From: Escherichia coli
Lineage (GTDB): Bacteria; Pseudomonadota; Gammaproteobacteria; Enterobacterales; Enterobacteriaceae
Assembly (NCBI RefSeq): GCF_036507355.1
Contig: NZ_AP027877.1
Length of the DNA: 64,000 nucleotides
Reading direction: 5' to 3' (one strand)
Shown here: one piece after another, positions 5,774 to 64,000 of the stretch
How the letters are laid out: the number at the start of each line of letters is the position of its first letter
Position numbering within the stretch: position 1 is the first letter of the stretch
Translations under genes and position numbers: made by a program
Notes under the pieces: model-generated
The model's database searches: none
What the model was told of the DNA's origin: nothing
What the model saw: only the letters and a program-made list of their open reading frames with translations

Positions 5774-7063
5774 ATGACAACGGACGATCTTGCCTTTGAC
5801 CAACGCCATATCTGGCACCCATACACATCCATGACCTCCCCGCTGCCGGTTTATCCGGTGGCGAGCGCCGAAGGTTGCGAGCTAATTTTGTCTGACGGCA
5901 GACGCCTGGTTGACGGTATGTCGTCCTGGTGGGCGGCGATCCACGGCTACAATCACCCGCAGCTTAATGCGGCGATGAAGACGCAAATTGATGCCATGTC
6001 GCATGTGATGTTTGGCGGTATCACTCATGCGCCAGCCATTGAGCTGTGCCGCAAACTGGTGGCGATGACGCCGCAACCGCTGGAGTGCGTTTTTCTCGCG
6101 GACTCCGGTTCTGTAGCGGTGGAAGTGGCGATGAAAATGGCGTTGCAGTACTGGCAAGCCAAAGGCGAAGCGCGCCAGCATTTTCTGACCTTCCGCAATG
6201 GTTATCATGGCGATACCTTTGGCGCGATGTCGGTGTGCGATCCGGACAACTCAATGCACAGCCTGTGGAAAGGCTATCTGCCAGAAAACTTGTTTGCTCC
6301 CGCCCCGCAAAGCCGCATGGATGGTGAATGGGATGAGCGCGATATGGTGGGCTTTGCCCGCCTGATGGCGGCGCATCGTCATGAAATCGCGGCGGTGATC
6401 ATTGAACCGATTGTCCAGGGCGCAGGCGGGATGCGCATGTACCATCCGGAATGGTTAAAACGAATCCGCAAAATGTGCGATCGCGAAGGTATCTTGCTGA
6501 TTGCCGACGAGATCGCCACCGGATTTGGTCGTACCGGCAAACTGTTTGCCTGTGAACATGCAGAAATCGCGCCGGACATTTTGTGCCTCGGTAAAGCCTT
6601 AACCGGCGGCACAATGACCCTTTCCGCCACACTCACCACGCGCGAGGTTGCGGAAACCATTAGTAACGGCGAAGCCGGTTGCTTTATGCATGGGCCAACT
6701 TTTATGGGTAATCCGCTGGCCTGCGCGGCAGCAAACGCCAGCCTCGCCATTATCGAAACTGGTGAATGGCAACAGCAGGTGGCGGCTATTGAAGCGCAGC
6801 TACGCGAGCAATTGGCCCCCGCCCGTGATGCCGAAATGGTTGCCGATGTGCGCGTGCTGGGAGCAATCGGCGTAGTCGAAACAACTCGTCCGGTGAATAT
6901 GGCGGCGCTGCAAAAATTCTTTGTCGAACAGGGTATCTGGATCCGGCCTTTTGGCAAACTGATTTACCTGATGCCGCCCTATATTATTCTCCCGCAACAG
7001 TTGCAGCGTCTGACCGCAGCGGTTAACCGCGCGGTACAGGATGAAACATTTTTTTGCCAATAA
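5774..7063 (+). CDS. bioA: Adenosylmethionine-8-amino-7-oxononanoate aminotransferase
   Basis: ATG at 5774 gives [19 protein letters not shown]... (429 aa); the ORF-track start at 5663 is an upstream extension. Confidence 0.95.
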
Positions 7064-7099
7064 CGGGAAGTCAGCGAGAGGGTTTCTGGCTACACTTTC

Positions 7100-8398
7100 T
7101 GCAAACTAGAAAGGAGGGTTCTTGACGGCTCCCCGCCCCGAATGACGGGGATTCCCACTTCAACGAGCCGAACCTAAGCCGCGTGCTGCGATTCAGGGTT
7201 TACAGGCTCTCCGTGGGCTAACACTGCCAACCCGGCAGCTTTAATATTACGTGCCGCGTTAATGTCGCGATCATAGTCTGCGCCGCATTCAGGGCAGTGC
7301 CATTTACGAACATTAAGAGGCATTTTTTGCATGGTGAAACCGCAGCAACTACAGCATTTTGAGGACGGTAAATACTGGTCAATGGCGACCACTGACCGCT
7401 CGGCCCATTTGCCTTTGTACTGGAGCTGGCGAACAAGTTCGCTCCAGCCTGCGTCAGCTATTGCTTTAGACAGCTTCGGGTTGCGGATCATGTTTTTCAC
7501 CTTGAGGGATTCGACGCAAACAACTTGGTTTTCGTTAATCAGTTTGCGGGACAACTTGTGCAGATTGTCCATCCGGCAATCGGCGATTTTCGCGTGGAGT
7601 CGGGCGACCTTTAAGCGGGCTTTAATACGGTTTCTTGAGCCTTTTTGCTTCCTGCTTAAACATCGCTGTAGCAGCGTTAATCGCTTCGCATATTTAGCGG
7701 TGTGGCGGGGATTGTCGGTTTTGAATCCGGTATCGGTAACGAATAAATCTTTTAAGCCCACATCAATGCCGACCGTTTTAGCGGTAACAGGCATTGATAC
7801 AGGTTCAAACTCACACAGGCAGGAAACAAAGTACCTGCCAGCGCTATCTCTGGAAATGGTAACGGTTGACGGCGCAGAGGGTAATTCTCGACTCCAGCGA
7901 ACATCCAGCGGCGACTTGCTTTTGCTATATACAACTCGCCGTCACGGTGTTTAAACGCGCTGGCAGTGAACTCAGCCACCTGTTTGTGCCGTTTGCTTTT
8001 GAAAGCCGGATATGCAGCTCGTCCGGCAAAGAAGTTAGCAAAGGCGGCTTGTTGGTGGCGCAACGACTGCTGGAGGGGACATTCAGCCATATGTATTCAG
8101 GCTCTTTTTTGAGCGCCGTAAGGCGAGCGTTGGCCTGTAGATAACCGATCTTTTCCTTTCGCTCGTAGTACGCATCGGTACGCCAACGAAGGATGGAATT
8201 GTAGACGAAGCGCACACAGCCGAACGTCTGAGCTAAAAGCTCAGCCTGCTCAGTTGTCGGGTAAAACCGGTATTTATATGCGCGTTTCATGTGTTCACAT
8301 ACTAAAGAGGAAAATGTGATTATGCAAAGTACAGTTAGTCGGAAAACCGCCTCCTTTCCTCCCCGGCCTGAAGGCCGAGGTTTCCCGGAGGCATTCTA
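7100..8398 (-). mobile_element. IS200/IS605-family tnpB-only element (IS609-like), boundaries approximate
   Basis: TnpB-like coding region flanked by hairpin-forming ends (ccccg...cgggg near 7127-7150; cggcctgaaggccg near 8350-8395); no tnpA; occupies the bioA-ybhB spacer. Confidence 0.6.
7174..8290 (-). pseudogene. tnpB: tnpB (IS605 OrfB-type RNA-guided nuclease homolog) interrupted by two frameshifts
   Basis: Three overlapping minus-strand frames (7925..8290 MKRAYKYRFYPT...; 7752..8090 ...FFAGRAAYPAFKSKRHKQ...; 7174..7794 ...CCSCCGFTMQ...CPECGADYDRDINAARNI) together span one TnpB-length protein with the C-terminal zinc finger. Confidence 0.7.
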
Positions 8399-8875
8399 AT
8401 GAAACTCATCAGTAACGATCTGCGCGATGGCGATAAGTTGCCGCATCGTCATGTCTTTAACGGCATGGGTTACGATGGCGATAATATTTCACCGCATCTG
8501 GCGTGGGATGATGTTCCTGCGGGAACGAAAAGTTTTGTTGTCACCTGCTACGACCCGGATGCGCCAACCGGCTCCGGCTGGTGGCACTGGGTAGTTGTTA
8601 ATTTACCCGCTGATACCCGCGTATTACCGCAAGGGTTTGGCTCTGGTCTGGTAGCAATGCCAGACGGCGTTTTGCAGACGCGTACCGATTTTGGTAAAAC
8701 CGGATACGATGGCGCAGCGCCGCCGAAAGGCGAAACCCATCGCTACATTTTTACCGTTCACGCGCTGGATGTAGAGCGTATTGATGTCGATGAAGGAGCC
8801 AGCGGCGCGATGGTCGGGTTTAACGTTCATTTCCACTCTCTGGCAAGCGCCTCGATTACGGCGATGTTTAGTTAA
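8399..8875 (+). CDS. ybhB: PEBP/YbhB-family protein
   Basis: 158-aa ORF MKLISNDLRDGDKLPHRHVF... in the conserved position next to bioA. Confidence 0.9.
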   Translation: MKLISNDLRDGDKLPHRHVFNGMGYDGDNISPHLAWDDVPAGTKSFVVTCYDPDAPTGSGWWHWVVVNLPADTRVLPQGFGSGLVAMPDGVLQTRTDFGKTGYDGAAPPKGETHRYIFTVHALDVERIDVDEGASGAMVGFNVHFHSLASASITAMFS

Positions 8876-9026
8876 TCACTCTGCCAGATGGCGCAATGCT
8901 ATCTGGTATCACTTAAAGGTATTAAAAACAACTTTTTGTCTTTTTACCTTCCCGTTTCGCTCAAGTTAGTATAAAAAAGCAGGCTTCAACGGATTCATTT
9001 TTCTATTTCATAGCCCGGAGCAACCT

Positions 9027-10310
9027 GTGAACACATTTTCAGTTTCCCGTCTGGCGCTGGCATTGGCTTTTGGCGTGACGCTGACCGCCTGTAGCTCAAC
9101 ACCACCCGATCAACGTCCTTCTGATCAAACTGCGCCTGGTACCTCTTCTCGCCCGATTCTGTCGGCAAAAGAAGCGCAGAATTTCGATGCTCAACACTAT
9201 TTTGCATCCCTGACACCAGGTGCTGCAGCGTGGAATCCTTCCCCGATTACCCTGCCTACACAACCTGACTTTGTTGTCGGCCCGGCGGGTACTCAAGGTG
9301 TAACGCATACCACGATTCAGGCGGCGGTAGATGCGGCAATTATCAAGCGTACCAACAAGCGCCAGTATATTGCCGTGATGCCTGGTGAGTATCAGGGAAC
9401 GGTGTATGTCCCTGCCGCTCCGGGTGGAATTACTCTGTACGGTACAGGTGAAAAACCGATTGATGTGAAGATTGGGCTTTCCCTTGATGGGGGTATGAGC
9501 CCTGCCGACTGGCGTCACGACGTCAACCCGCGCGGCAAATATATGCCAGGTAAACCAGCGTGGTATATGTACGATAGCTGCCAGAGCAAACGCAGCGACA
9601 GTATCGGTGTTCTCTGCTCTGCGGTCTTCTGGTCACAAAACAATGGCCTGCAACTGCAAAACCTGACCATCGAAAACACGCTGGGCGATAGCGTAGATGC
9701 GGGTAACCATCCGGCGGTGGCACTGCGTACTGATGGTGACCAGGTACAGATTAACAACGTTAACATTCTCGGTCGTCAGAACACCTTCTTTGTCACCAAC
9801 AGCGGTGTGCAGAACCGTCTGGAAACCAACCGTCAGCCGCGTACGCTGGTGACCAACAGCTATATTGAAGGGGATGTGGATATCGTTTCTGGTCGCGGTG
9901 CAGTGGTGTTCGATAACACCGAATTCCGCGTGGTGAACTCACGTACTCAGCAAGAAGCGTATGTGTTTGCACCGGCTACGCTGTCCAACATCTATTACGG
10001 TTTCCTCGCCGTAAACAGCCGTTTCAATGCTTCCGGTGATGGCGTGGCGCAACTGGGCCGCTCGCTGGATGTTGATGCCAATACCAACGGTCAGGTGGTG
10101 ATCCGTGATAGCGCCATCAACGAAGGTTTTAACACGGTTAAACCGTGGGGCGATGCGGTGATCTCTAATCGTCCGTTTGCGGGTAATACCGGCAGCGTTG
10201 ACGATAGCGACGAAATACAGCGCAATCTGAATGACACTAACTACAACCGCATGTGGGAATACAATAACCGCGGCGTGGGTAGCAAAGTGGTTGCAGAGGC
10301 GAAGAAGTAA
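9027..10310 (+). CDS. ybhC: Outer-membrane lipoprotein YbhC (pectinesterase-like fold)
   Basis: GTG start; lipoprotein signal ...LTACSS; 427 aa. Confidence 0.9.
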   Translation: MNTFSVSRLALALAFGVTLTACSSTPPDQRPSDQTAPGTSSRPILSAKEAQNFDAQHYFASLTPGAAAWNPSPITLPTQPDFVVGPAGTQGVTHTTIQAAVDAAIIKRTNKRQYIAVMPGEYQGTVYVPAAPGGITLYGTGEKPIDVKIGLSLDGGMSPADWRHDVNPRGKYMPGKPAWYMYDSCQSKRSDSIGVLCSAVFWSQNNGLQLQNLTIENTLGDSVDAGNHPAVALRTDGDQVQINNVNILGRQNTFFVTNSGVQNRLETNRQPRTLVTNSYIEGDVDIVSGRGAVVFDNTEFRVVNSRTQQEAYVFAPATLSNIYYGFLAVNSRFNASGDGVAQLGRSLDVDANTNGQVVIRDSAINEGFNTVKPWGDAVISNRPFAGNTGSVDDSDEIQRNLNDTNYNRMWEYNNRGVGSKVVAEAKK

Positions 10311-38085: not shown

Positions 38086-38877
38086 TTACATCGCGTTCAG
38101 ACGTTTTTGTGCCTGTTTAGCGCCATCAGTACCAGGGTATTTACTGATAACCTGCTGGTATACGGCTTTCGCTTTTGCGGTGTCACCTTTGTCCTGCATG
38201 ATGACGCCGACTTTAAACATCGCATCTGCAGCCTTTGGTGACTTCGGATAGTTTTTCACTACCGAAGCAAAATAGTACGCCGCATCATCTTTTTTACCCT
38301 TGTTGTAGTTTAACTGACCCAGCCAATAATTGGCGTTTGGCAGGTAAGTTGAATCAGGGTAATTTTTGATGAAATTCTGAAATGCCACCATTGCGTCATC
38401 CTGGCGGGATTTATCCTGCACCAGCGCAATAGCTGCATTGTAATCCGTGTTTGCATCACCGCTTTTCACCGGCGCGCCAGCATTCGCAGTACCAGCATCA
38501 GCTGTCGGCGTCGTTGATGCCGCCGCACCGCTTTGATCACCGCTGGTTGATTGCGCCGCTGCACCACCGCTGCTGAGGCTGTCGATCTGCAACAGGATCT
38601 GCTTTTGCCGCTCCACGACCTGATTCAGTTGATACTGATTTTCCTGAATCTGACCACGCAGGGAATCAATATCGGATTGATTATCAGAGAGTTGTTGCTG
38701 GAGTTGGGTTAAAAGCTGGCTGTGAGCATTAGAAATACGCTCAAGTTGAGTGACGCGGTCTTCGACCGAGCCTGAGCCGACACTACTGATTGGTGCCTGA
38801 GCAAAAGCGGCCCAGGGGGCCGCTATACCAACCAGTAACGACAGACTCAATAGTTGATGTCTGAAGTTACTGCTCAT
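38086..38877 (-). CDS. cpoB: Cell-division coordinator CpoB (YbgF), TPR protein
   Basis: 263 aa with signal peptide, coiled coil and C-terminal TPR repeats; downstream of pal. Confidence 0.93.
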   Translation of the reverse strand: MSSNFRHQLLSLSLLVGIAAPWAAFAQAPISSVGSGSVEDRVTQLERISNAHSQLLTQLQQQLSDNQSDIDSLRGQIQENQYQLNQVVERQKQILLQIDSLSSGGAAAQSTSGDQSGAAASTTPTADAGTANAGAPVKSGDANTDYNAAIALVQDKSRQDDAMVAFQNFIKNYPDSTYLPNANYWLGQLNYNKGKKDDAAYYFASVVKNYPKSPKAADAMFKVGVIMQDKGDTAKAKAVYQQVISKYPGTDGAKQAQKRLNAM

Positions 38878-38886
38878 GCAATTCTC

Positions 38887-39432
<546 letters not shown>

Positions 39433-45448: not shown

Positions 45449-47017
45449 TTAGCGTGCCGGCTGAGTAGTCGTGGAAGACTGCTCAAAGTGATAGCGACCG
45501 GTTTTCAGGCTGCTTGGGCCGAGGCGTGCAAACTTGAACATTAAGAACAATTCTGCCACCAGGAACAGGGTATACAGGCCGCAAATCAGCACCATTGAGA
45601 AGATGAGATCGCCTGCGGTCAGTGACGAGTTCGCCACAGCTGTCGGCAGCACTTCACCGATAGCCCACGGTTGGCGGCCATATTCAGCCACGAACCAGCC
45701 CGCTTCTACAGCAATCCACGGCAGCGGAATACCGTACAGCGCGGCGCGCAGCAGCCATTTTTTCTCGCCAATGCGGTTGCGGATAACACTCCAGAAAGAG
45801 AGCGCGATGATTGCCAGCAGCAGGAAGCCACACGCCACCATGATACGGAACGCGAAGTACAGCGGCGCTACACGCGGAATGGAGTCTTTGGTTGCCTGTT
45901 GAATCTGAGCTTCAGTCGCATCAGCCACGTTTGGCGTATAGCGTTTCAGCAGCAGACCATAACCGAGGTCTTTCTTCATGCTATTGAACTGGTCACGAAC
46001 CGCCTGGTCGGTAGAACCAGAACGCAGCTGTTCGAGCAGAGAGTACGCCTTCATCCCGTTACGAATGCGTTCTTCATGCTGCACCATCAGTTCTTTCAGG
46101 CCGATAACTGGAGTATCCACGGAACGCGTTGCAATGATGCCCAGCGCGTAAGGGATCTGGATCGCAAATTTGTTCGTCTCCTCTTCCTGATCAGGAATGC
46201 CGAACAGAGTAAAGGCAGCAGGCGCAGGTTGCGTTTCCCACTCGGCTTCAATAGCAGCCAGTTTGGTTTTCTGCACGTCGCCCATTTCGTAGCCGGATTC
46301 ATCACCCAGAACAATAACAGACAGAACGGCAGCCATACCGAAGCTGGCAGCGATAGCAAAGGAGCGTTTAGCGAAGGCGAAGTCACGACCTTTCAGCATA
46401 TACCATGCGCTGATACCGAGGATGAACATCGCGCCAGTCACATAACCAGACGCTACAGTGTGAACGAATTTCACCTGAGCAACCGGGTTAAGCACCAGCT
46501 CGGAGAAGCTCACCATCTCCATACGCATAGTTTCAAAGTTGAAATCGGACGCGATTGGGTTTTGCATCCAGCCGTTCGCAACCAGAATCCACAGTGCGGA
46601 CAGGTTTGAACCGAGCGCCACCAGCCAGGTGACACACATATGCTGAACTTTACCCAGACGATCCCAACCGAAGAAGAACAGACCTACAAAGGTGGATTCG
46701 AGGAAGAAGGCCATCAGACCTTCGATTGCCAGCGGCGCACCGAAGATATCCCCTACATAGTGGGAATAGTAAGACCAGTTAGTCCCGAACTGGAACTCCA
46801 TGGTCAGACCGGTAGCCACACCCAGAGCGAAGTTGATACCAAACAACTTGCCCCAGAACTTGGTCATATCTTTATAAATCTGTTTGCCGGAAAGGACGTA
46901 GACCGTTTCCATAATGGCCAGCAGGAACGCCATACCGAGCGTCAGTGGCACAAAAAGGAAGTGGTACATCGCGGTCAAGGCAAACTGTAAGCGCGACAGT
47001 TCGACTATATCTAACAT
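45449..47017 (-). CDS. cydA: Cytochrome bd-I ubiquinol oxidase subunit I
   Basis: [24 protein letters not shown]...; 522 aa from the second ATG. Confidence 0.96.
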
Positions 47018-47355
47018 CATGACTCCTTGCTCATCGCATGAAGACTCCGAGAGTGAACCCCGTTAGAAAGGGTCACACGCATGCCCCAATACAAAATTAT
47101 TTGCTCGCCTCTATCGTTGCCATTTCATCAAAAGAGGAAAAGACAATGATAAAAAAAGTTACAAATATGTTAATGAATAAACCAAATTGATCCCGTAATT
47201 ATATTACGCCGCAAAATCCTTACAATAAACAGGTTTTTATTGAGCAAATTTGCATTTTTCGACAGTGATCAATTTATAGCGAAATTGTCACGATCTCACC
47301 AATTTGATCTACGACAATTTATCGTGTTTTGCAGAATTTTTTCAAGAATTAAAAA

Positions 47356-47369
47356 TTGATTTATATCAA
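47356..47369. promoter_or_regulatory. FNR-type site in the cydA upstream region
   Basis: TTGAT-ttat-ATCAA, a perfect match to TTGAT-N4-ATCAA, in the long AT-rich cydA control region. Confidence 0.6.
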
Positions 47370-47823
47370 AACCAATCAAATATGTTAATTATGTATAAAC
47401 CATAGATCATTGGTGATTTTATTGTTAATTTATTGTGAAATATTTATGCAACACAATTATTACAATGAAAAGGTATAGATAAAAAACCAGTATTTTATTT
47501 AACAGAACCGCCTTATCCACTTTTTATAATACCAATTGATTAGAGTAGCCAATTTGTTGCTATTTTACATAACATATTTTTATCAAAGTTAATTGATTGT
47601 TACCTTTATGAGCACCGACCGTAAGCCCGTTATGTTATTGTTTCATTAGTAATAATCACTTAAATGTATCGATGAAACAGGTATGACTTACCGGGAGTGA
47701 TTGTTTCTGAGTGAACAGAGGCCACTTTCGCCTGATAAATGAAAAATGAGCGATTTTTGCAAGTTAGTTTTTCTATAGCCGAGTACGCTCAGCGCCTCGC
47801 TTGATTACAATGAGGTTGCTGCT

Positions 47824-48768
47824 ATGAGTCCTGATAATATCGGTTCGGCTGTCAATCGCTTCTCAGGTTGGCCATCTAATGATTCTCTAAAAACAGATAA
47901 AGAATCAATGACATCACCCGTGACTGTGCAGGTAATAAAGATGATTGCCGCCATCCTTGACCCACATCGGATAGTCGTTGGAATCGATACACTTTATACA
48001 ACGCAGCGCGAAACATTTACCTCAGAGAGTCAACAGCTCATTGAATCAGCATTGCAAACACTTCATGTGATGAATTTAAATAATCTGGAAACAAATCGCG
48101 ATGAAGAAGGTCACTATCTGGCTTTTGAATATAACGTTGACACCTCTGACAGAATAACCGTTTCTGCTTATAATGAAAAAAAGCCTGGCTGCTATGGCCA
48201 ATGTCTTGTAATACAGGATGACGAAACAGACTTATTTAACCTGATAAAAATTAAAATTTTCGAAGCCAGGCATAATTATGTCGCTCAATTGATGAGCGAT
48301 CCGGAATTTATGTTCAAATTCAGTTATAGCGCTCAACAAAATAGATTAGAACCTCATCTTCTGGTTCCCGCTTATTTCCCTCTAAAAACAAACGAACCGG
48401 TTACGCAAGAGGATGTACTGTTACTTTATCGTTTCTTTAAAATGAATGATGATTTTAATAAATTAACATCAGATGAATACATGAGTATCCTGACACCTCT
48501 GATGAAGTGTGAGCGTAGCGTCCACGACAACAACAGGTATGTGACGGGCAAAGATACCCTTCTTCTGGACTATCCTCCTTCTGGTAACCAGATACATTTC
48601 CATGTTTTCCCTGACGAATCAGCAACACTAGTCCTTTATTTTTCAAACAATGACCTTGAATGTTTCGTCTTTGAAAGAGATATTCCTAGCCAGTATCGCT
48701 TTTTCAAAATGTTTACCAATCTGGCACTGGTTATAGATCAGTTAACCGAAGCCAATAAAATACTTTAA
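47824..48768 (+). CDS. Hypothetical protein, AT-rich, no recognisable domain
   Basis: 314-aa uninterrupted ORF with visibly lower GC than flanking core genes; absent from the K-12 gene order at this locus. Confidence 0.55.
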   Translation: MSPDNIGSAVNRFSGWPSNDSLKTDKESMTSPVTVQVIKMIAAILDPHRIVVGIDTLYTTQRETFTSESQQLIESALQTLHVMNLNNLETNRDEEGHYLAFEYNVDTSDRITVSAYNEKKPGCYGQCLVIQDDETDLFNLIKIKIFEARHNYVAQLMSDPEFMFKFSYSAQQNRLEPHLLVPAYFPLKTNEPVTQEDVLLLYRFFKMNDDFNKLTSDEYMSILTPLMKCERSVHDNNRYVTGKDTLLLDYPPSGNQIHFHVFPDESATLVLYFSNNDLECFVFERDIPSQYRFFKMFTNLALVIDQLTEANKIL

Positions 48769-48848
48769 TTTTCTATATATCCCTATGGCTAATATTGCTA
48801 AACAATGCCTGGGGATTAATTTTTATTACTCACGGAAAGATTTAAATA

Positions 48849-49271
48849 ATGATACCATCTCAGATCTCTTTCAATACCCTTCCAGTCAATGCAACATACG
48901 CTTCAGAGACAACAGTTGACACACAAAAATTCTCTGACATCCTCTACTCAGCGGGGTGTTCCCTAAAGGATATGGCTTATCTGAGCAGATGTCTGGCATC
49001 AATACACCCGACTATCGCCAAAAACATTTATGAAACAGAAAATCTCAGCGATCAAAAATTACTGCATATTGATTGCCGTAGTACAAATGAAATCAAGATA
49101 AATATCTTTTTTGGTCAGCAAAGAGAAGGGTTAATTGAAATTAGTTCTGACACAGTTATTTTTTCGATACTGTCTTCATTGATTGACTCCGCCATTTCTA
49201 AATTTCAACACCAAAACCCGGTTAACGGTTTAGTTAATCCTGAAATATTGTATGAGGATTATACTGATTAA
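48849..49271 (+). CDS. Hypothetical protein, AT-rich
   Basis: 140-aa ORF immediately downstream of and co-oriented with the 314-aa ORF; plausible RBS (ggaaag) upstream. Confidence 0.45.
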   Translation: MIPSQISFNTLPVNATYASETTVDTQKFSDILYSAGCSLKDMAYLSRCLASIHPTIAKNIYETENLSDQKLLHIDCRSTNEIKINIFFGQQREGLIEISSDTVIFSILSSLIDSAISKFQHQNPVNGLVNPEILYEDYTD

Positions 49272-49818
49272 ATCCACCCTGTCGCGAAAAATGGCCTGCG
49301 TTATTGCCAGACGTAATAAAACCTTTGATTAACGTTACTCATACTGGTAGCACCTTCATGTACCTCTCTTTTTTACGAAAAATCAAAAGAGCTAACTAAG
49401 GTCATAATTCGCATGAATCATTAACCATTTGTTATTTTCAACATTATTTTTACATTAAGCAGAGATGAATTGCAGTGAAATTCGACTTAAATCTTATGAA
49501 ATGCATTTACTCATGGCTAAAACCACGTCACAAAAATGCAAATTAGAAGTAGATCACAATTATCTCAATACATTAAATCAAGTTAATTTTAAAAATTTAA
49601 CATTCATGACATTAGTTGACATAACACACTGAATTAACATGGAAATTTAAAAACACACTTTAAACAATCATTTCCCGAAAGACATTTTGAAAATAGATCA
49701 ATTGCAACATTACGGTCAGATAAAGACACTCCTGTGATATTAAACCTGTGCCGTTATGAACGGCCATAAATACGACGTGTGTAACTTATTTTACTCTCTG
49801 TCTTACAAAGGATTACCC

Positions 49819-50268
49819 ATGAAGAAAGCAACACTTGTGATTGGCGTTATTGGCGCGGACTGCCATGCAGTAGGCAATAAAGTTCTGGACCGCGTTTTTA
49901 GCAACCACGACTTCAGAGTCATTAATCTGGGCGTAATGGTCAGCCAGGACGAATATATTGATGCTGCCATTGAAACTGGCGCTGACGCGATTGTCGTCTC
50001 CTCTATCTATGGGCATGGCGATATCGACTGTCTGGGCATGCGCGAACGCTGCATCGAGCGTGGACTGGGGGACATCCTGCTCTATGTGGGCGGTAACCTG
50101 GTGGTCGGAAAACATGACTTCGCTGACGTGGAAACCAAATTCAAAGAGATGGGATTTGATCGCGTCTTTGCCCCAAGTCATGACTTAGAAGATGTTTGTC
50201 AGCTGATGGCCCACGATATCAACCAACGTCATGACATTGATACTCGTATTCTTGAAGAGGCTATCTGA
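49819..50268 (+). CDS. glmS: Glutamate mutase sigma subunit (B12-binding)
   Basis: [22 protein letters not shown]... with the DxHxxG cobalamin-binding motif; about 149 aa; RBS aaagga. Confidence 0.85.
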
Positions 50269-63113: not shown

Positions 63114-64000
63114 TATTTCCCCTCCACTGCGGCAACAACCTGCTGAGCTGCATCCGTCAGACCTTTTGCTGCAATAATATTCAGGCCGCTGTCAGCCAGT
63201 TTCTTCGCGCCGAGTTCGGCGTTGTTACCTTCCAGACGTACCACGACCGGTACGTTAACACCCACTTCCGCTACCGCGCCGATGATACCGTCAGCGATCA
63301 GATCGCAACGAACGATACCGCCGAAGATGTTAACCAGAACGGCTTTCACTTTGTCGTCAGAGAGGATGATTTTGAACGCTTCGGTTACACGTTCTTTGGT
63401 TGCGCCGCCGCCAACGTCCAGGAAGTTAGCCGGTTCTCCGCCGTGCAGTTTAACGATGTCCATCGTACCCATCGCCAGACCTGCGCCGTTAACCATACAA
63501 CCGATGTTACCGTCCAGCGCAACGTAGTTCAGTTCCCACTGTGCAGCCTGTGCTTCACGTGGATCTTCCTGCGACTGGTCACGCATTTCGCGCAGATCAG
63601 GCTGGCGGAACAGGGCGTTGCCATCAGCGCCCAGTTTGCCGTCGAGGCAAATCAGATCACCCTGTTTGGTGATGACCAGCGGGTTGATTTCGATCAACGC
63701 CAGGTCGCGCTCCAGGAAAATGGTCGCCAGGCCCATGAAGATTTTGGTGAACTGCTGAACCAGTTTACCTTCCAGACCCAGTTTGAACGCCAGCTCGCGT
63801 CCCTGATACGGCATCGGGCCAGTCAGCGGATCAAGCGCAACTTTGTGGATCAGGTGCGGAGTTTCTTCCGCCACTTTTTCGATTTCCACGCCGCCTTCGG
63901 TAGAGGCCATAAAGACCACGCGACGTGAACTACGGTCTACAACGGCACCGAGATACAGCTCTTTAGCGATATCGGTCGCCGCTTCAACCAGAATCTGGTT
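63113..64000 (-). CDS. sucC: Succinyl-CoA synthetase beta subunit, 5' end beyond window
   Basis: C-terminal ~295 aa ending ...[10 protein letters not shown]; frame open to the window edge. Confidence 0.95.

What the first reader, a model, noticed from the sequence alone, without database searches (positions are those of the whole stretch)
47824..49271. Two AT-rich genes of unknown function at the edge of the island
Two co-oriented ORFs (314 aa and 140 aa) follow an ~800-bp very AT-rich region upstream of cydA. Their GC content is visibly lower than that of flanking core genes, and I recognise no motif in either. Position and composition suggest horizontally acquired cargo, possibly H-NS-silenced; a toxin/partner or effector-like pair is possible but unsupported.
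Basis: inference. Interest (0 to 1): 0.55.

Follow-up and report, generated by a model that had tools for sequence, protein, structure and literature searches.

The report
Escherichia-only orphan gene pair beside cydA
The two AT-rich ORFs are real, selectively maintained protein-coding genes (ECs_0767 and ECs_0766 of E. coli O157:H7 Sakai). They have no detectable relative outside E. coli/Shigella and Escherichia albertii, they are an old cydA-linked module rather than cargo of the neighbouring glutamate-mutase island, and their function is still unknown.

Summary
ORF1 (47824-48768, 314 aa) and ORF2 (48849-49271, 140 aa) lie on the + strand in the only segment of the 64-kb window below 42% GC. 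They sit between the cydAB control region and the glmS-glmL-glmE methylaspartate cluster.

- **Real genes.** ORFs this long do not arise in composition-matched simulations. dN/dS is 0.42 for ORF1 (E. coli vs E. albertii, no indel) and 0.10-0.31 for ORF2.
- **Orphans.** Pfam, NCBIfam, PADLOC, PHROGs, PDB sequences, an exhaustive HMMER scan of 1.84 billion representatives, and plasmid and phage tblastn found only the same proteins. AlphaFold models are unreliable (pLDDT 46 and 40).
- **Distribution.** The pair is in 1135 of 5426 complete E. coli genomes, matching the count for the glm cluster. It is still separable from glm. E. albertii keeps an intact ORF1 next to cydA with no glm and a decayed ORF2. 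An EPEC E2348/69-derived genome keeps both ORFs although an IS element removed most of glm.
- **Hypotheses.** At least 438 carriers lack LEE, so a LEE effector is unlikely. An obligate toxin/antidote pair is also disfavoured. H-NS silencing fits the composition but was not tested.

Verdict: an ordinary but genuine, uncharacterised, lineage-restricted gene pair of modest interest.

The parts
47021..47400 (-). cydA-proximal part of the cydAB control region, shared by all haplotypes at this locus; not specific to the gene pair
   Evidence: It aligns in the glm-type window, E. albertii, the E. coli TPR-type and the K-12 mng-type. Identity between window and E. albertii is 92-100%. K-12-type genomes match only the first 395 nt upstream of cydA, at about 81%.
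47356..47369 (.). Perfect FNR-consensus box TTGATTTATATCAA inside the cydAB control region
   Evidence: Exact match to TTGATNNNNATCAA. Conserved in all four haplotypes; K-12 has TTGATAAATATCAA. Its role as an FNR site of cydAB rests on general knowledge and was not tested here.
47520..47610 (.). Second conserved intergenic block; function unknown (a distal cydAB element or an ORF1 upstream element)
   Evidence: 90-92% identical between E. coli and E. albertii, flanked by stretches of 58-70%. Also present in the TPR-type haplotype but not alignable in the K-12 type.
47730..47823 (+). Conserved ORF1 upstream region: inferred promoter and leader, with a Shine-Dalgarno GAGG at 47812-47815, 8 nt before the ATG
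   Evidence: 87-88% identity to E. albertii, higher than most of the ORF1 coding sequence. The sequence was read directly. No strong sigma-70 consensus match there. No RNA-structure signal: z = 0.1 and no covariation. No Rfam match.
47824..48768 (+). ORF1, 314 aa, acidic (pI 4.8) soluble protein; orthologue of ECs_0767 (NP_308794.1) of O157:H7 Sakai; orphan family confined to E. coli/Shigella and E. albertii
   Evidence: annotation. (dN/dS 0.42 vs E. albertii, z about 5, no indel). (length versus chance). (only self and fragments among 1.84e9 representatives). (E. albertii cluster). (pI; no transmembrane segment).
48769..48848 (+). 80-nt intergenic spacer; no terminator-like site, so co-transcription of ORF1 and ORF2 is inferred
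   Evidence: the only terminator-like hits are at 48186-48201 inside ORF1, at chance frequency. Sequence.
48849..49271 (+). ORF2, 140 aa, acidic (pI 4.7) soluble protein; orthologue of ECs_0766 (NP_308793.1); orphan, intact in E. coli and decayed in E. albertii and Shigella dysenteriae
   Evidence: (dN/dS 0.10-0.31 within E. coli, z 2.0-3.6). (Escherichia and Shigella only). (frameshifted or truncated copies). (ECs0766 transcript up about 2-fold 90 min after cold downshift in Sakai).
49272..49818 (+). 547-nt AT-rich gap (32% GC) separating ORF2 from glmS (ATG at 49819); inferred separate promoter region of the glm operon
   Evidence: glmS boundaries are from the O157 annotation. No Rfam family, including no cobalamin riboswitch, at E <= 1.

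Best explanation
ORF1 and ORF2 are genuine protein-coding genes, probably one bicistronic unit, encoding two small acidic soluble proteins. Each belongs to a family found only in Escherichia (E. coli/Shigella and E. albertii).

They form an old module physically tied to the distal side of the cydAB control region and transcribed divergently from cydA. They are not part of the methylaspartate (glutamate mutase) cluster that lies next to them in E. coli.

ORF1 is the autonomous, longer-lived component. It is kept intact where ORF2 has decayed and where glm is absent. ORF2 is an E. coli-maintained partner and possibly a distant paralogue of ORF1.

Shown here: coding status, purifying selection, orphan status, distribution, and separability from glm, from LEE and from mobile elements.

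Inferred, not shown: the 2.8-kb AT-rich block is bound and normally silenced by H-NS. The genes are therefore expressed only conditionally, from a promoter in the conserved 47730-47823 block. The proteins act inside the cell as non-enzymatic binding or regulatory factors of niche-specific, non-essential benefit. The biochemical activity cannot be derived from the sequence.
For: - **ORF length versus chance:**
- **Purifying selection.** ORF1 vs E. albertii: dS 0.53, dN 0.22, omega 0.42, z about 5, identical length of 314 codons. ORF2 within E. coli: omega 0.10-0.31.
- **Annotation.** Two CDS are annotated in 60 of 60 sampled carrier genomes.
- **Orphan status.** Only self and fragments were found in an exhaustive HMMER scan of 1.84e9 representatives. 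K-mer searches of 5.8e9 clusters gave the same result. A DNA-pattern scan of 100,044 species genomes hit only two contigs, from MAGs labelled Collinsella and Citrobacter. Their ORF1 products match the common E. coli consensus, and one of them also carries ORF2, glmS and glmL.
- **Old, cydA-linked module.** A colinear 1.88-kb alignment at 80.7% runs from the cydA start through ORF1 into the ORF2 start in E. albertii. The E. albertii cluster has 131 members, mostly 314 aa. cydA dS for the same genome pair is 0.29.
- **Separable from glm.** E. albertii L002 has no glm genes. An E2348/69-derived genome has both ORFs intact although ISEc13 replaces everything beyond glmS. GC is 0.37-0.39 for the ORFs and 0.52 for glm, with a 547-nt gap between them.
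- **ORF1 autonomous.** ORF2 is frameshifted or truncated in E. albertii.
- **Soluble and acidic.** pI 4.8 and 4.7; no hydrophobic segment.
- **H-NS-type composition:**
- **Some transcription.** ECs0766 mRNA rose by log2 1.05 at 90 min after a 35 to 14 C shift in Sakai (PMC4057180 supplement).
Against: - No direct evidence was found that either protein is made. Neither ECs0766 nor ECs0767 occurs in the stored supplement text of three O157 proteome or omics papers.
- H-NS binding, operon structure and promoter position are inferences. No convincing sigma-70 consensus lies upstream of ORF1.
- ORF1's omega of 0.4-0.67 indicates only moderate constraint.
- Within E. coli the pair and the glm cluster occur in the same number of genomes (1135 each). 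A functional connection is therefore not excluded by E. coli data alone.
- The 'non-enzymatic binding or regulatory protein' statement has no positive evidence. It is a default drawn from size, acidity and the lack of any catalytic-family signal.
Confidence: 0.6

Rival explanations
1. One or both proteins are substrates of a type III secretion system, either two effectors or an effector with a small acidic partner. Their polar, disordered N-termini would serve as secretion signals.
For: - Residues 2-26 are rich in Ser/Thr/Pro/Asn/Gln: 44% in ORF1 and 56% in ORF2. These are the 94th and 100th percentile of 54 long ORFs in the window.
- Both N-termini are modelled without secondary structure. 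The ORF1 N-terminus is among the best-conserved parts of the gene.
- Both proteins are acidic.
- Carriers include O157:H7, O145, an E2348/69-derived O127:H6 genome and E. albertii. These are LEE-positive lineages by general knowledge.
Against: - LEE escN-escV is present in only 697 of 5426 genomes, whereas the pair is in 1135. At least 438 carriers therefore lack LEE.
- The pair is not in a prophage or integrative element, and tblastn found no homologue in 50,697 phage records.
- No similarity to any effector family.
- The N-terminal composition is confounded by the AT-rich codon bias of the genes.
- No main-text mention of the locus tags was found, and nothing in the stored supplements of one Pch/H-NS study. 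The Ler-regulon paper had no supplement text to search.
Confidence: 0.08
2. The pair is a toxin/antidote or toxin/immunity module, possibly with ORF1 as an orphan immunity protein retained after loss of the toxin.
For: - Two small adjacent co-oriented genes, both acidic, AT-rich, fast-evolving and narrowly distributed.
- The first non-self Foldseek rows include 'Immunity protein 43', 'Immunity protein 52' and Knr4/Smi1-like proteins. These are at E 0.18-1.6 and TM <= 0.2, which is noise level on a low-confidence model.
- Retention of ORF1 after decay of ORF2 would fit 'immunity kept, toxin lost'.
Against: - No PADLOC, Pfam or NCBIfam hit.
- The genes are 80 nt apart rather than overlapping.
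- Single copy at a fixed chromosomal site, with no true plasmid or phage copies.
- No Rhs, CdiA or T6SS toxin gene or remnant lies upstream; the upstream DNA is the cydAB control region.
- ORF1 as toxin with ORF2 as antidote is contradicted by E. albertii.
- ORF2 is under the stronger purifying selection in E. coli (omega 0.1-0.3), and both ORFs stay intact together across sampled genomes.
Confidence: 0.07
3. The two proteins are accessory or regulatory components of the adjacent methylaspartate (mesaconate) pathway of glutamate fermentation.
For: The pair and glmS-glmE are each found in 1135 of 5426 E. coli genomes, always adjacent in the loci inspected.
Against: - E. albertii keeps ORF1 without glm. 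An E2348/69-derived genome keeps both ORFs after loss of glmL onward.
- Kronen & Berg (PMC4682846) report the cluster in Klebsiella, Citrobacter, Enterobacter, Salmonella, Yersinia and Morganella and do not list these ORFs as part of it. ORF1 and ORF2 homologues exist only in Escherichia and Shigella.
- GC is 0.37-0.39 for the ORFs against 0.52 for glm, with a 547-nt AT-rich gap between them.
Confidence: 0.07
4. The ORFs are evolutionary leftovers: open by inertia, not translated into functional proteins, and on their way to decay.
For: - No homologues, no confident fold (pLDDT 46 and 40) and no proteomic detection in the supplements searched.
- ORF2 is decayed in E. albertii and S. dysenteriae. 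ORF1 fragments occur in some assemblies.
- ORF1 omega is up to 0.67 within E. coli.
Against: - ORF1 has stayed exactly 314 codons with no stop or indel across 23% nucleotide divergence in AT-rich DNA, where stop codons arise easily.
- dS exceeds dN significantly: z about 5 for ORF1 and 2.0-3.6 for ORF2.
- Differences are enriched at third codon positions.
- A Shine-Dalgarno sequence lies at correct spacing before ORF1.
- Both ORFs are annotated as intact CDS in 60 of 60 sampled genomes.
Confidence: 0.08

Closest known systems
Taxonomically restricted (orphan) genes of Enterobacteriaceae, typically AT-rich and part of the H-NS-silenced accessory genome
   Same: - No homologue outside a narrow clade despite exhaustive search.
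- GC about 13 points below the genome average.
- Accessory distribution (21% of E. coli genomes).
- Short, acidic products with no confidently predictable fold.
- High density of H-NS-motif-like sites.
   Different: - Not associated with any mobile element, and no donor lineage found.
- Positionally stable next to a core operon across two species, which implies an age of at least the E. coli-E. albertii split or an en-bloc homologous exchange.
- H-NS binding was not demonstrated here.
Non-LEE type III effectors of EHEC, EPEC and E. albertii (Nle and Esp families) and their class I chaperones
   Same: - Polar Ser/Thr/Pro/Asn-rich, apparently disordered N-termini.
- Low GC.
- A small acidic second protein.
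- Present in several attaching-effacing lineages.
   Different: - Not in prophages or exchangeable effector loci.
- At least 39% of carrier genomes lack LEE.
- No sequence similarity to any effector or chaperone family.
- Secretion untested.
Type II toxin-antitoxin modules and polymorphic-toxin immunity genes
   Same: - A compact two-gene, co-oriented arrangement of small, fast-evolving, narrowly distributed proteins.
- One partner can be lost while the other persists.
   Different: - An 80-nt spacer rather than overlapping genes.
- No family hit in PADLOC or Pfam.
- Single fixed chromosomal site.
- No toxin-delivery gene nearby.
- Both partners are under purifying selection in E. coli.
Methylaspartate-pathway (glmS-glmL-glmE-mal-...-fumD) cluster of Enterobacteriaceae (Kronen & Berg 2015, PMC4682846)
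   Same: - Immediate neighbour on the same strand.
- Found in the same number of complete E. coli genomes (1135 each).
   Different: - Different base composition, separated by a 547-nt AT-rich gap.
- The pair is absent from other genera that the paper reports as carrying the cluster.
- The pair, or ORF1 alone, persists where the cluster is absent or deleted.

Membership tests
Taxonomically restricted (orphan) protein-coding genes | No detectable homologue outside a narrow clade in a sensitive, exhaustive search | tested here: met
   A HMMER profile of ORF1 against 1.84e9 representatives gave 14 hits, all fragments or frameshifted copies of the same protein. K-mer plus HMMER searches of 5.8e9 clusters found Escherichia and Shigella only. 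PDB sequences, plasmids and phages gave nothing beyond three chromosome-size or chromosome-fragment E. coli records filed in the plasmid collection. ORF2 did not get the exhaustive scan, only the k-mer-seeded one.
Taxonomically restricted (orphan) protein-coding genes | Evidence that the ORF is coding and under purifying selection | tested here: met
   Omega is 0.42 for ORF1 (z about 5) and 0.10-0.31 for ORF2 (z 2.0-3.6). ORF length is beyond 3000 composition-matched simulations.
Taxonomically restricted (orphan) protein-coding genes | Evidence of expression | tested here: inconclusive
   The only datum found is a microarray result: ECs0766 (ORF2) mRNA up by log2 1.05 at 90 min after cold downshift (PMC4057180 supplement). 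No protein-level record in the three other supplements searched.
H-NS-silenced xenogeneic genes | AT content well above the genome average, with H-NS-preferred motifs | tested here: met
   GC is 0.32-0.39 across 47021-49818 against 0.506 for the window. These are the only sub-42% kb-bins of the 64 kb. TCGATAAATT-like sites (up to 2 mismatches) occur at 4.65 per kb against 1.3 per kb.
H-NS-silenced xenogeneic genes | H-NS occupancy and derepression in an hns mutant | not testable with these tools
   No ChIP or hns-mutant data could be retrieved. The stored supplements of the Pch/H-NS paper PMC4764244 do not mention the locus.
H-NS-silenced xenogeneic genes | Identifiable foreign origin (donor lineage or mobile-element context) | tested here: not met
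   No homologue in any other taxon. No integrase, IS element or tRNA at the borders in O157. No true plasmid or phage copies.
LEE/T3SS-translocated effectors and class I chaperones | Co-occurrence with the secretion system | tested here: not met
   The pair is in 1135 genomes and LEE escN-escV in 697, so at least 438 carriers lack LEE. ETT2 and flagellar export were not examined.
LEE/T3SS-translocated effectors and class I chaperones | N-terminal secretion-signal-like composition | tested here: inconclusive
   S/T/P/N/Q fraction of residues 2-26 is 0.44 (94th percentile) for ORF1 and 0.56 (100th percentile) for ORF2. This is confounded by AT-rich codon usage, and no trained predictor was available.
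LEE/T3SS-translocated effectors and class I chaperones | Homology to a known effector or chaperone family, or location in a prophage or exchangeable effector locus | tested here: not met
   locus context.
LEE/T3SS-translocated effectors and class I chaperones | T3SS-dependent secretion or translocation | not testable with these tools
   Needs reporter-fusion experiments.
Type II toxin-antitoxin / toxin-immunity pairs | Homology of either partner to known toxin, antitoxin or immunity families | tested here: not met
   PADLOC 0 hits. Pfam and NCBIfam gave nothing below E = 0.04. Foldseek 'Immunity protein' rows are at E >= 0.18 on an unreliable model.
Type II toxin-antitoxin / toxin-immunity pairs | Toxin never retained without its antidote | tested here: not met
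   This applies to the model 'ORF1 toxin, ORF2 antidote'. E. albertii keeps an intact ORF1, while ORF2 is frameshifted or truncated. The reverse polarity is not excluded.
Type II toxin-antitoxin / toxin-immunity pairs | Growth inhibition by the toxin, neutralised by the partner | not testable with these tools
   Needs expression experiments.
Methylaspartate-pathway gene cluster | Co-occurrence with glmS/glmE/mal across taxa | tested here: not met
   Met within E. coli (1135 genomes each). Not met in E. albertii, which has ORF1 and no glm, nor in the E2348/69-derived genome. Other genera reported to carry the cluster (PMC4682846) have no ORF1 or ORF2 homologue.
Methylaspartate-pathway gene cluster | Same transcription unit and composition as the pathway genes | tested here: not met
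   A 547-nt, 32% GC gap precedes glmS. ORF GC is 0.37-0.39 against 0.52 for glm. Transcript mapping was not available.

The most novel reading that the evidence does not exclude
ORF1 and ORF2 found a structurally new, Escherichia-born protein family. Both low-confidence models show the same pattern: a disordered polar N-terminus, then helices, a three-stranded beta-meander and a long helix. The pattern occurs once in ORF2 and twice in ORF1. Weak ORF2-to-ORF1 similarity falls at matching positions. The family would have arisen by duplication, possibly from AT-rich intergenic DNA next to cydA. Its expression would be wired into the oxygen-responsive, H-NS-, FNR- and ArcA-controlled divergent cydAB region, giving carriers a respiration- or gut-niche-linked function not yet described.
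Probability: 0.12. Interest if true: 0.55.

Novelty: new member of a known kind. Interest (0 to 1): 0.3.

Why it matters
About one in five complete E. coli genomes, including O157:H7, other EHEC and EPEC lineages, some Shigella and E. albertii, keep a 314-aa protein with no relative among about 15 billion predicted proteins. It is under purifying selection and sits back-to-back with the control region of cytochrome bd-I oxidase, an operon important for microaerobic gut life.

Showing that the pair is older than the glutamate-fermentation island and independent of it changes how the locus should be read. The pair should not be counted as part of that metabolic cluster, and not as a LEE effector. 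It should be treated as a separate, testable orphan module.

Beyond that, it is one more uncharacterised lineage-restricted gene pair. It is useful for studies of orphan-gene evolution and H-NS silencing, but is not in itself a surprise.

Tried and rejected
- **Family libraries.** Pfam, NCBIfam, PADLOC and PHROGs gave no significant hit.
- **PDB sequence profiles.** Best E-values were 0.79 and 0.93.
- **Internal repeat or ORF1-ORF2 paralogy.** hhalign gave E 0.02-0.4. blastp of ORF2 108-136 against E. albertii ORF1 137-165 gave E = 8e-4, with 4 of 1000 shuffles scoring as high. The three E. coli ORF1 alleles showed nothing (z < 0). This stays a hint only.
- **RNA elements.** No Rfam match at E <= 1 in 46.9-49.9 kb. 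The ORF1 leader fold has z = 0.1 and no covariation. A hairpin that could pair CCUC with the GAGG Shine-Dalgarno sequence is predicted but unsupported.
- **Promoter and terminator scan.** Counts are at shuffle expectation, with nothing convincing upstream of ORF1.
- **Mobile origin.** tblastn found no true plasmid or phage copies. The three 'plasmid' hits are records of 4.9 Mb, 4.9 Mb and 730 kb.
- **Species-genome scan.** A degenerate 30-mer from ORF1 hit only two contigs, from MAGs labelled Collinsella and Citrobacter. Their ORF1 products match the common E. coli consensus, and the Collinsella-labelled contig also carries ORF2, glmS and glmL. The pattern could miss diverged copies; it evidently missed the E. 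albertii representative genome.
- **Remnants in other haplotypes.** No trace of ORF1 or ORF2 was found in the K-12 (mng) or TPR haplotypes.
Full report
**Observation**

The two ORFs exist as described: 47824-48768 (+, 314 aa) and 48849-49271 (+, 140 aa), 80 nt apart. Upstream lies cydA on the minus strand (45449-47020), and the gap between them is 803 nt at 32.9% GC. ORF1 is 38.5% GC and ORF2 36.6%, against 52.8% for cydA, 52.2% for glmS-glmE and 50.6% for the window. The three 1-kb bins 47001-50000 are the only ones in the 64-kb window below 42% GC. In 3000 first-order Markov simulations of the 2.8-kb AT-rich segment, the longest ORF averaged 86 codons. None reached 314, and the second-longest never reached 140.

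**Identity and context**

The window is E. coli/Shigella DNA of the haplotype found in O157:H7. The gene order is cpoB-pal-tolBARQ-ybgC-ybgE-cydX-cydB-cydA on the minus strand, then ORF1 and ORF2. The methylaspartate-pathway cluster follows: glmS, glmL, glmE, methylaspartate ammonia-lyase, AtuA-like, DUF4387, a dicarboxylate symporter, the class I fumarase FumD and cobO. A LysR regulator and sucD come after it.

In O157:H7 Sakai, ORF1 is ECs_0767 (NP_308794.1) and ORF2 is ECs_0766 (NP_308793.1). cydA is ECs_0768 and glmS is ECs_0764. All annotations call the two proteins 'hypothetical'. The exact ORF1 sequence of the window also occurs in Shigella boydii records.

**Are they genes?**

ORF1 was compared with a 63%-identical copy from a Logan assembly (L002). 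That copy belongs to a cluster whose named members are all Escherichia albertii. The comparison gives dS 0.53, dN 0.22 and omega 0.42 (z about 5). Both copies are exactly 314 codons despite about 23% nucleotide divergence, and differences are enriched at third positions (67, 54 and 98 at codon positions 1, 2 and 3).

ORF2 among E. coli alleles has omega 0.10-0.31 (z 2.0-3.6). A GAGG Shine-Dalgarno sequence lies 8 nt before the ORF1 ATG. In a sample of 60 carrier genomes spread across the identity ranking, both CDS are annotated in all 60. Both are therefore real protein-coding genes under purifying selection, moderate for ORF1 and stronger for ORF2 in E. coli.

**Homology**

No library gave a hit: Pfam, NCBIfam, PADLOC, PHROGs, and PDB sequence profiles.

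The k-mer-seeded search of 5.8 billion clusters found ORF1 only as clusters at 94%, 88% and 63% identity plus fragments. ORF2 appeared only in Escherichia and Shigella. An exhaustive HMMER profile scan of 1.84 billion representatives with the ORF1 alignment returned 14 hits. All those inspected are fragments or frameshifted versions of the same protein.

tblastn found no phage copy. The only 'plasmid' hits are three E. coli records of 4.9 Mb, 4.9 Mb and 730 kb filed in the plasmid collection. A degenerate ORF1 DNA pattern scanned over 100,044 species genomes hit two contigs, from MAGs labelled Collinsella and Citrobacter. Their ORF1 products match the common E. coli consensus, and the Collinsella-labelled contig also carries ORF2, glmS and glmL. 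Both proteins are orphans restricted to E. coli/Shigella and E. albertii.

**Structure**

Both models show a structure-less polar N-terminus followed by helices, a three-stranded meander and a long helix. The pattern appears once in ORF2 and twice in ORF1. Weak ORF2-to-ORF1 similarities fall at equivalent elements: hhalign E = 0.02, and blastp E = 8e-4 against the E. albertii allele with 4 of 1000 shuffles scoring as high. The three E. coli alleles give nothing. Paralogy is a hint, not a result. Both proteins are acidic (pI 4.8 and 4.7) and have no hydrophobic segment.

**Distribution and history**

The pair occurs in 1135 of 5426 complete E. coli genomes, and the glmS-glmE segment also occurs in 1135. 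The remaining genomes carry other cargo between sucD and cydA. Two alternatives were seen: mngR-mngA-mngB as in K-12 (L007), and a TPR-protein gene (L008). Neither holds any remnant of ORF1 or ORF2.

Despite the matching counts, the pair is separable from glm:

- In E. albertii (L002) the order is cydA, ORF1, a frameshifted remnant of ORF2, a 258-aa signal-peptide protein, then sucD, with no glm genes. The homology to the window is one colinear 1.88-kb alignment at 80.7%, running from the cydA start into the ORF2 start. The E. albertii ORF1 cluster has 131 members, mostly full length. ORF2 there survives only as a 90-aa truncated form or a remnant.
- In an E2348/69-derived O127:H6 genome both ORFs are intact, although ISEc13 and an mngA fragment replace everything beyond glmS.
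- Kronen & Berg report the glm cluster in several other enterobacterial genera and do not list these ORFs as part of it (PMC4682846). ORF1 and ORF2 homologues exist only in Escherichia and Shigella.
- cydA dS between the window and L002 is 0.29. The module therefore predates E. coli diversification, or it moved together with the cydA flank by homologous exchange.

ORF2 is also disrupted in S. dysenteriae and in a few assemblies.

**The upstream AT-rich region**

The cydA-proximal ~400 nt align in all haplotypes and contain a perfect FNR-consensus box at 47356-47369. This is the ordinary cydAB control region; assigning that function rests on general knowledge of cydAB regulation by FNR, ArcA and H-NS.

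Against E. albertii, conservation comes in three blocks: 47021-47400 (92-100%), 47520-47610 (90-92%), and 47730-47880 (87-88%). The third block covers the ORF1 leader and the first codons. It is the best candidate for the ORF1 promoter and leader. The consensus scan finds no good sigma-70 match there, and no RNA structure is supported.

**Tests of the functional ideas**

- **LEE effector.** The N-termini are unusually rich in S/T/P/N/Q (94th and 100th percentile), and the ORF1 N-terminus is conserved. However, LEE escN-escV is in only 697 genomes, so at least 438 of the 1135 carriers lack it. The locus is not prophage-borne, and no effector family matches.
- **Toxin/antidote.** There are no family hits, the spacer is 80 nt, the module sits at a fixed single site, and ORF1 is retained without ORF2 in E. 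albertii. Only the model 'ORF2 toxin, ORF1 immunity' survives, without positive evidence.
- **glm accessory.** This is contradicted by the cross-taxon distribution, the base composition and the 547-nt gap.
- **H-NS silencing.** Composition and motif density fit, but no binding or mutant data could be retrieved.
- **Expression.** The only datum found is ECs0766 mRNA up by log2 1.05 at 90 min after a 35 to 14 C downshift in Sakai. Neither locus tag occurs in the stored supplement text of three other omics papers, and a fourth supplement mentions only cydA.

**Verdict**

This is a genuine, conserved, Escherichia-restricted orphan gene pair. ORF1 is the autonomous member. The pair is anciently linked to the cydAB control region, is independent of the neighbouring metabolic island, of LEE and of mobile elements, and is probably H-NS-silenced and conditionally expressed. 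Its biochemical function is unknown.

It is a new, uncharacterised member of a familiar kind: AT-rich, lineage-restricted accessory genes. Interest is modest at 0.3. The most novel reading not excluded is a new, duplicated fold family born in Escherichia and wired to oxygen-responsive control. I give it about 12% probability.

Noticed in passing
window 47021-47660; L007 6019-6400; L008 6019-6660: The cydAB upstream control region exists in at least three deeply diverged haplotypes within E. coli. K-12 (mng) type genomes match this window for only 395 nt at about 81%, and TPR-type genomes for 660 nt at about 91%, whereas cydA itself is nearly identical. Distal cydAB promoter DNA may therefore differ between strains.
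   Followed up: partly
L013 (NZ_LT903847.1, E2348/69-derived O127:H6) 5995-9277: The glm cluster is cut after glmS by an ISEc13 copy, followed by an mngA pseudogene fragment and mngR. This is a mosaic of the glm-type and mng-type haplotypes. ORF1 and ORF2 remain intact.
   Followed up: partly
L002 11786-12562 (E. albertii-type contig): A 258-aa protein with an N-terminal signal-peptide-like sequence occupies the place of the glm cluster between the ORF2 remnant and sucD. It has no Pfam hit on record. This is a third kind of cargo at the sucD-cydA hotspot.
   Followed up: no
[not shown]
   Followed up: no
window 38848-38986 (-): Full-length match to the Rfam CpoB/ybgF intergenic thermometer (142 bits).
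   Followed up: no
L009 (contig of a MAG labelled Collinsella sp.) and L010 (contig of a MAG labelled Citrobacter sp.): Both contigs encode an ORF1 that matches the common E. coli consensus. The Collinsella-labelled one also carries ORF2, glmS and glmL. They look like mis-binned Escherichia DNA in public species-representative MAGs.
   Followed up: partly
window 48849-49271: ORF2 shows unusually high synonymous divergence among E. coli alleles (dS 0.08-0.18), against 0.036 for cydA in a comparable pair. The window's allele differs from O157:H7 at 14 of 423 nt, while ORF1 differs at only 5 of 945. This suggests old allelic lineages or recombination inside the pair.
   Followed up: partly
window 48146-48174 (+): The best sigma-70-like match of the region (CTGACA-17-TATAAT, 11 of 12) lies inside ORF1. 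It is the sort of intragenic promoter-like site common in AT-rich DNA, and the overall count is at shuffle expectation.
   Followed up: no
window 47790-47820 (+): A predicted leader hairpin pairs a CCUC with the GAGG Shine-Dalgarno sequence of ORF1. It is not supported statistically (z = 0.1, no covariation), and one pair is broken in E. albertii.
   Followed up: yes
window 49465-49632 (+): A 55-aa ORF lies in the AT-rich gap before glmS. The tag ECs_0765 is absent from the current Sakai annotation between ECs_0764 and ECs_0766, so an ORF once called in this gap may have been withdrawn.
   Followed up: no
window 63684-63697: A second perfect FNR-consensus box (TTGATTTCGATCAA) lies near the far end of the window. 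Its context was not examined.
   Followed up: no
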